This document shows, in pieces, positions 5,892 to 6,407 of a stretch of DNA of 18,355 nt (positions within the stretch are counted from its first letter, which is position 1; every line of letters begins with the position of its first letter). Source of the stretch: a virus (lineage: Duplodnaviria; Heunggongvirae; Uroviricota; Caudoviricetes). Where the stretch lies: the IMG/VR virus record IMGVR_UViG_2534682080_000004, positions 1 to 18,355 of that record; one strand, given 5' to 3'. A program made the translations under genes and the position numbers. The notes under the pieces are model-generated. The model was not told the DNA's origin and ran no database searches. It saw only the letters and a list, made by a program, of their open reading frames with translations.

Positions 5892-6407
5892 GTGATCGCT
5901 GAATTAACGGCAGCAATGACGGCTATTCGTGAAACAGCCCAGATTGCAAAACTAATGAACGAGGCAAAAACTCAAGCTGAAGTAAATGCGGCTATTGGTG
6001 AGCTGAACTCAAAGCTTGCGTCTATTCAGCGCGAATGCGTGTCTCTCGTTGAACTGGTGGGCTCTTATCAAGAAATAAATGCTTCTCTCAAAGCTAAAAT
6101 TGCAGAATTCGAAAACTTTGAGGCTCAGACGGAAGGCTATATCCTTAACCAACTTGAGTCGGGTACTTTTGTATACTCGAAGGAGGTAATCGTGAACGGT
6201 GGCAGCATAACCATGCATCTTTGCCCAAAATGTTTTGGACAAAAGATAGTATCGATACTTCAACCATTCCCGGTTAGCGAAGATGAGCTTTTTCATAAAA
6301 GCAGGTGCCTCCACTGTGAAAATAAGTTTCTGATGAATAAAAATCCGGATTACGTATCGCCTCCATCCATTGAGGAGTTGTCCAGAAAACTTAACGGCAA
6401 TCTGTAG
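5892..6407 (+). CDS. Hypothetical coiled-coil / zinc-ribbon protein (about 172 aa), immunity-region moron
   Basis: Protein-like part of track ORF 5628..6407 begins at the in-frame GTG at 5892 (MIAELTAAMTAIRET...); N-terminal heptad-like helical segment, C-terminal CPKC...CLHC motif; own terminator downstream. Confidence 0.55.
   Translation: MIAELTAAMTAIRETAQIAKLMNEAKTQAEVNAAIGELNSKLASIQRECVSLVELVGSYQEINASLKAKIAEFENFEAQTEGYILNQLESGTFVYSKEVIVNGGSITMHLCPKCFGQKIVSILQPFPVSEDELFHKSRCLHCENKFLMNKNPDYVSPPSIEELSRKLNGNL

What the first reader, a model, noticed from the sequence alone, without database searches (positions are those of the whole stretch)
5892..6407. Self-contained coiled-coil / zinc-finger gene opposite the early-left operon, in the immunity region
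The plus-strand gene (about 172 aa) has its own terminator (6447..6469) and lies between the leftward promoter candidate and the early-left genes, so leftward early transcription would run antisense through it. The immunity-region neighbourhood is where lambdoid phages carry exclusion or abortive-infection morons (rexAB, sieB). The protein combines a helical N-terminus with a CPKC...CLHC motif and matches nothing I recognise.
Basis: partly seen in the sequence, partly recalled or inferred. Interest (0 to 1): 0.6.

Follow-up and report, generated by a model that had tools for sequence, protein, structure and literature searches.

The report
Rip1-type pore-forming prophage defence gene

Summary
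Window 5892-6407 (+) is a 171-aa gene with a conserved GTG start, an AAGAG ribosome-binding site and its own terminator. It lies convergent with cI, directly downstream of the cI-controlled leftward promoter pL.

As summarised in a 2026 review of Patel et al. (Nature 2026), Rip1 is a one-protein abortive-infection defence. Twelve copies assemble around a phage small-terminase or portal ring, and the N-terminal amphipathic helices form a membrane pore.

This copy is only 27-29% identical to the HK446 Rip1 and to JBD30 gp30. Its trigger, its promoter and how the resident phage avoids it are unknown.

Extra findings:
- The cassette flanks are far more conserved than the gene.
- The 3' flank reads as an exact boxA on the pL strand.
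- N- and C-terminal halves recombine independently.
- At least 80% of the cassette is present in 698 of 5426 complete E. coli genomes.

Verdict: new member of a known kind; moderate interest.

The parts
5892..6407 (+). Rip1-family defence gene, 171 aa. Residues 1-80 form two long amphipathic helices (predicted pore-forming part). Residues 81-150 form a Cys4 zinc-ribbon beta domain (predicted ring sensor). Residues 151-171 are a variable tail.
5879..5883 (+). Shine-Dalgarno AAGAG, 8 nt before the conserved GTG start
   Evidence: read from the sequence; GAG and the GTG start are conserved
5792..5891 (+). Hyper-conserved 5' leader module. It holds a 30-nt box GCCTGCTTTTAGCCACATCAGGCGAGGTGG (5792-5821) that is shared even with HK446 rip1 and HK620 hkaP, and two direct repeats TCCCCAACAACAA (5832-5844, 5865-5877). 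It is predicted to be unstructured as RNA. No sigma-70 promoter is recognisable in it.
6445..6469 (+). Intrinsic terminator of the gene (9-bp stem, loop TATA, T6)
6433..6445 (-). boxA-type sequence CGCUCUUUAACAA on the pL transcript, about 103 nt downstream of the inferred pL start and directly 3' of the hairpin formed by the reverse of the gene's terminator. Candidate nutL-type Nus-factor site.
   Evidence: (only exact match to GCTCTTTAACAA in the window); conserved. Its identity with the rrn/lambdoid boxA consensus is from my own knowledge.
5855..5880 (.). Left arm of a 26-nt inverted repeat that brackets the ORF (right arm 6409-6434). The 13-14-nt core AATCTGGATATCC is conserved across genera.
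6409..6434 (.). Right arm of the bracketing inverted repeat
6555..6582 (-). pL: TTGACA-16-CATAAT, 11/12 to consensus
6539..6575 (.). OL operators (two 17-bp TGTAC-N7-GTACA sites) of the same type as the three OR sites at 7314-7380
6591..6610 (-). Terminator after cI (tIMM equivalent)
6622..7296 (-). cI repressor (Peptidase_S24 C-terminal domain), convergent with the defence gene
5557..5780 (-). STnc100/PasD-like prophage sRNA element on the pL strand, just beyond the cassette (slightly below Rfam's gathering score)

Best explanation
Window 5892-6407 encodes a Rip1-family antiphage protein carried by an SfV/PhiR29-type lambdoid prophage integrated at thrW.

Shown here:
- It is a full-length sequence and fold homologue of HK446 Rip1 and of the Pseudomonas Casadabanvirus gene between the terminase genes.
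- It has no transmembrane segment.
- It has two long N-terminal helices and a C-terminal domain with four family-invariant cysteines.
- It is a self-contained unit with its own ribosome-binding site and terminator, on the strand opposite to the lytic operon that surrounds it.

Inferred from the family, as summarised in the review of Patel et al. 2026:
- The protein is made in the lysogen and is harmless on its own.
- When a superinfecting phage reaches late gene expression and builds ring-shaped oligomers (small terminase 11-mer in coliphages, portal in Pseudomonas phages), the C-terminal domains dock around the ring.
- About twelve copies are thereby templated into a second ring, and their N-terminal amphipathic helices form a pore in the inner membrane.
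- The cell dies or lyses before progeny mature, so the clone is protected (abortive infection).

Inferred from the anatomy here:
- The weak GTG start keeps levels low.
- The sensor (C-terminal) half evolves and recombines independently of the pore half.
- On induction of the resident prophage, boxA-equipped pL transcription runs antisense through the gene and may turn it down, sparing the phage's own assembly.
For: Sequence homology:
- The profile of 63 relatives matches PDB chain 9oox_L 'ring interacting pore 1 (Rip1)' at E 3.8e-21 over positions 5-151 of the profile and 15-160 of the chain.
- BLASTP gives 27% identity, E 4e-11 to HK446 gp37, the gene I take to encode the 9oox Rip1 chains (same phage, same 164-aa length, matching residues), and 29%, E 9e-20 to JBD30 gp30.
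- tblastn finds the same relatives in HK620 (hkaP), HK630, HK629, HK446 and DMS3/JBD30/MP42/D3112-type phages.

Fold:
- The AF2 model has pLDDT 91.
- In Foldseek only 9oox_L and 9oox_M are significant: E 5.5e-7 and 9.5e-7, prob 1.00, TM (target-normalised) 0.74.
- C111, C114, C139 and C142 are invariant in 63 close relatives and in 12 distant ones including HK446 Rip1, HkaP and JBD30 gp30.
- There is no hydrophobic 18-mer (maximum mean hydrophobicity 0.32), and the helices around residues 4-30 and 31-57 are amphipathic.

Mechanism of the family: review PMC13434031 section 5, the conference report PMC12908700, and the title of PDB 9oox, 'HK446 Rip1 in complex with phage T6 small terminase'.

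Context:
- In this clade the gene is convergent with, and next to, the repressor gene in every fully assembled locus examined. In 7 of 10 further genera the convergent downstream ORF has a Pfam HTH domain.
- In HK620, HK630 and HK446 it lies on the opposite strand inside the pL operon.

Modular evolution: identity of the N and C halves is uncorrelated (r = 0.10). For example P0031 is 91% (N) / 43% (C), and P0009 is 57% / 84%.

pL/OL and boxA.
Against: - Identity to the HK446 Rip1 and to JBD30 gp30 is low (27-29%), and no experiment exists for this clade.
- The primary paper could not be read. Mechanistic details come from a review, a meeting report and a PDB title.
- No promoter for the gene was found: nothing reaches 8/12 to the sigma-70 consensus with the key -10 bases on the + strand of 5400-5895, and the best match over 5300-5895 without that requirement is 8/12. 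Expression in the lysogen is therefore assumed.
- Zinc binding is inferred from the Cys pattern only.
- The 20-residue C-terminal tail with an extra helix is absent from HK446 Rip1.
- PADLOC (2023) does not list the family, which probably only reflects its date.
- The self-immunity idea (antisense pL transcription) is untested, and Rip1 protein already present at induction would not be removed by it.
Confidence: 0.78

Rival explanations
1. A Rip1-like fold used for defence without pore formation. The protein binds the invader's small terminase or portal ring and simply blocks packaging or assembly, as TerI and Tab do, and the cell is then killed by the invader's own lysis.
For: The C-terminal ring-binding half is the conserved homology core. 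Prophage proteins that block terminase or tail assembly exist, and Tab occupies the very slot that holds the Pseudomonas homologue. Hydrophobic moments of the N-terminal helices are moderate, 0.3-0.44.
Against: The N-terminal helical half is the more conserved half in this clade (mean pairwise identity 62% against 48%). It aligns with that of HK446 Rip1, for which pore formation, liposome dye release and cell rounding are reported.
Confidence: 0.1
2. A function for the phage itself. For example, a regulator of lysis timing or packaging that interacts with the phage's own terminase or portal, or a zinc-ribbon nucleic-acid-binding regulator of the DksA/TraR type acting on early transcription.
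For: A helical hairpin plus a C4 zinc motif is also the DksA/TraR layout. The gene sits among regulatory genes. It is kept in 698 of 5426 complete E. coli genomes.
Against: There is no Pfam, NCBIfam or PHROG match to DksA/TraR or to any regulator. The gene is dispensable for the phage type, because the same slot in SfV holds different ORFs and in other E. coli prophages holds an unrelated ECs1072-family gene. It is on the strand opposite to the lytic operons in three unrelated phage groups, the layout of lysogen-expressed morons.
Confidence: 0.06
3. A decaying or inactive copy in a defective prophage. The ORF is intact but no longer expressed or functional.
For: The integrase of this prophage is split into two reading frames. 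No promoter is recognisable.
Against: The ORF is full length, 99% identical to the copy in the sequenced phages PhiR29_1/2 and PhiR49_1. All family-invariant residues are present. The flanking signals are intact and identical to those of many other loci.
Confidence: 0.04

Closest known systems
Rip1 (ring interacting pore 1) of Escherichia phage HK446, PDB 9oox, and the Pseudomonas aeruginosa prophage Rip1 (Patel et al., Nature 2026, read only through review PMC13434031)
   Same: Full-length sequence and fold homology. Size about 165-171 aa. N-terminal long helices plus a C-terminal Cys4 beta domain. No transmembrane segment. Prophage gene on the strand opposite to a lytic operon.
   Different: Only 27-29% identical to HK446 gp37 and to JBD30 gp30. 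Lacks the 10-residue N-terminal extension of HK446 Rip1 and has an extra 20-residue tail. It sits immediately after pL next to cI, rather than between N and cIII or between the terminase genes. Trigger and phenotype are untested.
HkaP of phage HK620 (also in HK630 and HK629)
   Same: Same family (28% identity, tblastn E 3e-13). Opposite strand inside the pL operon. Shares the 30-nt upstream box GCCTGyCTTTTAaCCACATCAGGC..GGTGG. Annotated in 2001 as 'putative superinfection exclusion protein'.
   Different: A different sub-clade. Located downstream of N and hkaQ. The rest of the leader and the 3' flank differ.
SieB of lambda and P22 (with its sas antisense RNA and Esc; recalled from Ranade and Poteete 1993, not checked here)
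   Same: Position and logic: an abortive-type exclusion gene on the opposite strand within the pL operon, exposed to antisense pL transcription.
   Different: No sequence similarity: no Pfam hit of any kind at E<=10. As I recall it, SieB is a membrane protein. No internal Esc-like product has been shown here.
RexAB of lambda (from memory)
   Same: An immunity-region abortive-infection system of a prophage that kills through membrane permeabilisation.
   Different: RexAB has two proteins co-transcribed with cI and an integral membrane channel (RexB). Here there is a single soluble protein, convergent with cI, that combines sensor and effector.
Tab (JBD26) and TerI (Listeria phi10403S)
   Same: Small prophage-encoded defences that act on late morphogenesis proteins. 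Tab occupies the same inter-terminase slot as the Pseudomonas relatives, and TerI targets the terminase complex.
   Different: Unrelated sequences. They block assembly or packaging rather than forming a pore, and they need dedicated anti-Tab or anti-TerI self-immunity proteins. No such partner gene is visible next to this gene.

Membership tests
Rip1 (ring interacting pore 1) | Significant full-length sequence similarity to a characterised Rip1 | tested here: met
   Profile against PDB sequences: 9oox_L E 3.8e-21, covering 5-151 of the profile and 15-160 of the chain. BLASTP E 4e-11 to HK446 gp37. BLASTP E 9e-20 to JBD30 gp30.
Rip1 (ring interacting pore 1) | Same fold: N-terminal long helices followed by a compact C-terminal beta domain | tested here: met
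Rip1 (ring interacting pore 1) | Four conserved cysteines of the C-terminal domain (CxxC ... CxxC) | tested here: met
   C111, C114, C139 and C142 are invariant in alignments A1 and A4, which include HK446 Rip1, HkaP and JBD30 gp30. Metal binding itself was not tested.
Rip1 (ring interacting pore 1) | Single small soluble protein: amphipathic N-terminal helices and no transmembrane segment | tested here: met
   171 aa. No 18-residue window has mean hydrophobicity above 0.32. Hydrophobic moments reach 0.44.
Rip1 (ring interacting pore 1) | Prophage-borne, transcribed independently of (opposite to) the surrounding lytic operon | tested here: met
   A few distant members are chromosomal and not in prophages.
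Rip1 (ring interacting pore 1) | Activated by ring-shaped phage oligomers (small terminase or portal); forms a roughly 12-mer around the ring | not testable with these tools
   Known for HK446 Rip1 with T6 small terminase (PDB title; review). Needs co-expression, pull-down or cryo-EM for this protein.
Rip1 (ring interacting pore 1) | Membrane pore formation, abortive infection phenotype, and no toxicity on its own | not testable with these tools
   Reported for the family; no data for this copy.
SieB (lambda/P22 superinfection exclusion B) | Sequence membership in the SieB family | tested here: not met
   No SieB or any other specific hit in Pfam or NCBIfam at E<=10. Only the genomic position is shared.
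DksA/TraR C4 zinc-finger regulators | Match to the DksA/TraR zinc-finger domain | tested here: not met

The most novel reading that the evidence does not exclude
The gene may be part of a portable, self-regulating defence cassette whose conserved flanks work on both strands.

- The 5' leader (shared with an unrelated ECs1072-family cargo, and in part with HK446 rip1 and HK620 hkaP) would drive low-level expression in the lysogen.
- The 3' flank is the gene's terminator on one strand. On the other strand it is a hairpin plus an exact boxA about 100 nt after pL.
- On induction, Nus-modified pL transcription would then cross the 0.65-kb untranslated antisense stretch, bracketed by a 13-26-nt inverted repeat, and switch the defence off. 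This would be self-immunity by convergent transcription or antisense RNA, as I recall for sieB and sas in P22.
- The same flanks would let sensor variants and other cargos be swapped by homologous recombination.
Probability: 0.3. Interest if true: 0.55.

Novelty: new member of a known kind. Interest (0 to 1): 0.4.

Why it matters
- Function for a common gene. At least 80% of this cassette is present in 698 of 5426 complete E. coli genomes, O157:H7 among them, where it is annotated as hypothetical. A likely function can now be attached to it, one that would shape which phages can grow on these strains. That is relevant to phage therapy and typing.
- Sensor specificity. This clade is a diverse, recombining set of sensor variants on a common pore module, which could be used to map what decides ring specificity.
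- Self-immunity. The layout (pL, boxA, antisense defence gene, conserved leader) gives a concrete, testable model for how a prophage avoids being killed by its own late-protein sensor. I could not find that point addressed in the material available to me.

Tried and rejected
- Pfam, NCBIfam and PADLOC gave only coiled-coil noise. Ten distant members also have no Pfam family. PHROG 1244 matches but has no function assigned.
- GiPD474 (Gifsy, has an ATPase domain), TerI (Listeria) and Tab (83 aa) were read as candidates and are unrelated.
- Promoter search. The tool's scan finds none on the + strand. My own scan finds nothing at 8/12 or better with A2/T6 in 5400-5895, and only 7/12 matches in the conserved leader. 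I also tried sigma-32, sigma-54 and sigma-E consensus sequences by eye, without a convincing fit.
- The 5' leader is not a structured RNA: it folds less well than its shuffles (z +1.66). An H-type pseudoknot that can be drawn in the 30-nt box has no covariation, and some variants break it.
- I first read the bracketing inverted repeat as pairing better in the antisense (pL) RNA: 25 of 26 positions with G-U pairs, and 38 antisense-only against 10 sense-only wobbles across loci. The left arm is C/A-rich, so this asymmetry is expected from base composition alone, and only the 13-14-nt core is consistently conserved. I do not count it as evidence.
- The ECs1072-family cargo is not a hidden Rip1 relative (hhalign probability 0.2%).
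- Rfam at gathering score finds only the tRNA.
- Patel et al. 2026 and Tsao et al. 2018 are not in the held library, and no preprint was found.

Full report
**1. What is there**

The window is the left part of a lambdoid prophage of the SfV/SfIV/PhiR29 type. It is 99% identical over 5000-7700 to the sequenced Escherichia phages PhiR29_1/2 and PhiR49_1. The prophage is inserted at a tRNA-Thr(CGU) gene next to a proA-like gene.

The reported ORF runs from GTG 5892 to TAG 6405-6407 on the + strand and encodes 171 aa. A longer frame from TTG 5628 exists, and the PhiR29 annotators called a 242-aa version. I take GTG 5892 as the start for these reasons:
- Relatives start at the equivalent MIAEL position.
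- In 66 of 76 IMG/VR contigs with a complete ORF at this position the start is GTG.
- AAGAG lies 8 nt upstream.
- The upstream sequence is conserved at every base, which is not a coding pattern.

It is conserved in other genera.

**2. The surroundings**

cI (6622-7296, - strand, Peptidase_S24 domain) ends at a terminator at 6610-6591. Next comes a near-consensus - strand promoter, TTGACA(6582)-16-CATAAT(6555). Two 17-bp TGTAC-N7-GTACA sites overlap it (6559-6575 and 6539-6555). Three sites of the same type lie between cI and cro (7314-7380). This is therefore pL/OL. Leftward early transcription starts near 6548 and runs antisense through the whole ORF before reaching the yfdP-yfdT-type early-left genes.

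**3. Identity**

Pfam, NCBIfam and PADLOC give nothing specific. PHROG 1244, which has no assigned function, matches at 9e-60.

The family is large: 123 clusters at 90% identity, all labelled 'hypothetical', and 2832 clusters at 50% identity with E<=1e-3, nearly all 145-180 aa.

tblastn against phage genomes finds distant relatives in three places:
- HK620 (hkaP), HK630, HK629 and HK446.
- The Pseudomonas Mu-like phages DMS3, JBD30, MP42 and D3112.

An AlphaFold model built on 63 relatives is confident (pLDDT 91). It shows helices 2-24 and 28-79, a beta-rich domain 84-150 and a short helix 160-168.
- Foldseek finds only 9oox_L and 9oox_M as significant: E 5.5e-7 and 9.5e-7, probability 1.00, TM 0.74. 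The entry is 'HK446 Rip1 in complex with phage T6 small terminase'.
- By sequence, the family profile hits the same chain at E 3.8e-21 over its full length.
- Pairwise BLASTP gives 27% identity (E 4e-11) to HK446 gp37, which I take to be the gene for the 9oox Rip1 chains, and 29% (E 9e-20) to JBD30 gp30.
- The four cysteines are the only invariant columns in an alignment that spans the family.

**4. What Rip1 does**

I could not read the primary paper (Patel et al., Nature 651:1060, 2026). A 2026 review summarises it (PMC13434031):
[quoted passage not shown] It protects against superinfection and is not toxic alone.
- Cryo-EM shows 12 Rip1 subunits around an 11-mer small terminase ring. The C-terminal half contacts the ring and the N-terminal amphipathic helices line a pore.
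- Liposome dye release and holes in E. coli cells were seen.
- Relatives are widespread in Proteobacteria, mostly in prophages.

A meeting report and a preprint agree on these points.

The window protein meets every feature of the family that I could test: sequence, fold, cysteines, size, absence of a transmembrane segment and prophage context. The functional features (trigger, oligomer, pore, abortive phenotype) cannot be tested with these tools.

**5. Context is a family trait**

- In this enterobacterial clade the gene lies immediately left of the immunity repressor gene and convergent with it, whatever the repressor type:
  - S24-type or plain HTH repressors in Citrobacter and other genera.
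  - RacR-type in O157:H7.
  - In 7 of 10 further genera the convergent downstream ORF has a Pfam HTH domain.
- In HK620, HK630 and HK446 it lies on the opposite strand between N and cIII. HK620's authors annotated a pL terminator (tL1) inside it and called it a putative superinfection exclusion protein.
- In JBD30 it lies on the opposite strand between genes 29 and 31. [quoted passage not shown]
- So in three unrelated phage groups the gene is embedded antisense in a lytic operon.
- A few distant members are chromosomal and outside prophages.

**6. Modular evolution**

Among 63 relatives the N-terminal half (residues 1-80) is more conserved than the C-terminal half (81-150): mean pairwise identity 62% against 48%. 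The two identities are uncorrelated (r = 0.10). Examples are P0031 with 91% (N) and 43% (C), and P0009 with 57% and 84%. This fits a constant pore module joined to a diversifying, recombining sensor module.

**7. A cassette with conserved flanks**

About 100 nt upstream (5792-5891) and about 55 nt downstream (6420-6472) are almost identical in loci from Citrobacter, Kosakonia, Scandinavium, Edwardsiella, Buttiauxella and Enterobacter. The proteins of those loci are only 45-62% identical.

Distribution of the flanks and cargo:
- A 28-nt piece of the leader occurs in 94 IMG/VR stretches.
- Of the 76 with a complete downstream ORF, 71 carry a Rip1-family gene and 5 carry an unrelated ECs1072-family gene.
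- In complete E. coli genomes, 698 of 5426 carry at least 80% of the cassette, and 1416 give some match to the query, many to the flanks only.
- SfV has other ORFs in the slot.

A 30-nt box (5792-5821) is shared even with the HK446 and HK620 genes. There it is followed by two TACCCCTACAG repeats; here it is followed by two TCCCCAACAACAA repeats.

I found no recognisable promoter, and the leader is predicted to be unstructured. How the gene is transcribed in the lysogen remains open.

**8. The other strand of the 3' flank**

Read on the pL strand, the conserved 3' module is a stable hairpin (the reverse of the gene's terminator) followed directly by CGCUCUUUAACAA (6445-6433). GCTCTTTAACAA occurs exactly once in the window. 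From my own knowledge it equals the rrn/lambdoid boxA consensus, the NusB/NusE site of nut regions. It lies about 103 nt after the inferred pL start, where a nutL would be expected.

This would explain why the flank is conserved. It would also explain how pL transcription could cross roughly 0.65 kb of untranslated antisense RNA without Rho termination. No N-like gene or boxB was identified.

Beyond the cassette, on the same strand, lies a full-length but sub-threshold match to the prophage sRNA family STnc100/PasD: 5557-5780, 43.4 bits against a gathering score of 47, E 3e-8.

**9. Most likely mechanism**

Shown:
- Homology and fold.
- A self-contained gene.
- Antisense placement after pL.
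- Modular divergence of the two halves.

Inferred from the family:
- Constitutive low-level synthesis in the lysogen.
- Docking of the Cys4 domains around small terminase or portal rings of a superinfecting phage.
- Templated assembly of about twelve copies.
- Pore formation by the N-terminal helices, and death of the cell before progeny mature.

Inferred from the anatomy:
- The GTG start limits dosage.
- Induction of the resident prophage sends boxA-equipped pL transcription through the gene, which may lower its expression.

PhiR29-type phages, which carry a 99% identical copy and a Nu1-type small terminase, exist as sequenced phage genomes with recorded hosts. So either their own rings do not trigger the protein or it is switched off.

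**10. Rivals**

- The same fold used only to block packaging or assembly.
- A function for the phage itself.
- An inactive copy in a decaying prophage. The integrase here is frameshifted.

All three are less well supported; the rival entries give the detail.

**11. Novelty and score**

This kind of system was published in 2026, and its wide distribution in prophages was noted there. This is therefore a new, untested and fairly divergent member of a known kind. What may be new is the regulatory and cassette architecture of sections 7 and 8, and the clear mosaic of pore and sensor halves.

Interest 0.4. A specialist would not be surprised by the gene, but would find the pL/boxA/antisense layout a usable handle on the question of self-immunity.

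Noticed in passing
window 6433-6445 (- strand): Exact boxA-type sequence CGCUCUUUAACAA on the pL transcript, about 103 nt after the pL start and right after a hairpin. It is the only exact match to GCTCTTTAACAA in the window and is conserved with the cassette's 3' flank in many genera. No N-like gene or boxB was found, so the mode of antitermination in this phage type is open.
   Followed up: partly
window 5557-5780 (- strand): Full-length match to the prophage sRNA family STnc100 (RF02076), which a 2026 preprint reports to be related to PasD. 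It scores 43.4 bits against a gathering score of 47, E 3e-8. It lies on the pL strand between the cassette and yfdP. The long ORF 5060-5740 that overlaps it is probably coding only from about 5422 (the YfdP part).
   Followed up: partly
window 5855-5880 and 6409-6434: A 26-nt inverted repeat brackets the ORF exactly. Its 13-14-nt core AATCTGGATATCC / GGATATCCAGATT is conserved across genera. Its function is unknown: long-range RNA pairing, a protein-binding site or a recombination boundary are all possible. The apparently better pairing in the antisense RNA is explained by base composition.
   Followed up: partly
window 5792-5821, 5832-5844 and 5865-5877: A 30-nt box upstream of the gene is conserved even in front of the 27%-identical HK446 and HK620 genes. 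It is followed by two C-rich direct repeats, whose sequence differs between the two clades. No promoter, riboswitch or covarying structure could be assigned.
   Followed up: partly
L031:2599-3033 (E. coli M11957), and IMG/VR loci L039, L059, L066, L069, L079: The same conserved 5' leader is followed by an unrelated 144-151-aa 'ECs1072 family phage-associated protein' instead of Rip1. In L031 a match to the 3' end of the query is also present; the five IMG/VR loci lack the 3' module. This is a second cargo for the same slot, of unknown function and possibly another defence gene.
   Followed up: partly
window 12839-14053 and 14056-15231 (- strand): Two genes on the strand opposite to the rightward operon sit in the slot that, in PhiR29_1, lies between Q and the lysis genes and holds an OmpD porin gene. 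One is 404 aa with no Pfam or PADLOC hit. The other is 391 aa with an NA37/YejK-like nucleoid-associated domain (PF04245). This is a second moron slot with uncharacterised cargo.
   Followed up: partly
window 1459-2621 (- strand): The integrase is split into two overlapping ORFs in different frames: 152 aa (N-terminal part) and 262 aa (catalytic part). PhiR29_1 has a single 387-aa protein, from a different allele that is about 78% identical in DNA. This is a frameshift, so the prophage may be unable to excise, or it is a sequencing error.
   Followed up: partly
window 1-1444: Host flank: an aldehyde-dehydrogenase-family gene of 417 aa (proA-like) followed by tRNA-Thr(CGU) at 1369-1444. The prophage starts within or right after the tRNA gene, consistent with a thrW attachment site as used by SfV-type phages (from memory).
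   Followed up: no
window 5890-5895: An ATG-TGA 'start-stop' mini-ORF overlaps the GTG start (ATGTGA). It is specific to this allele; other loci have AAGTGA or ACGTGA.
   Followed up: no
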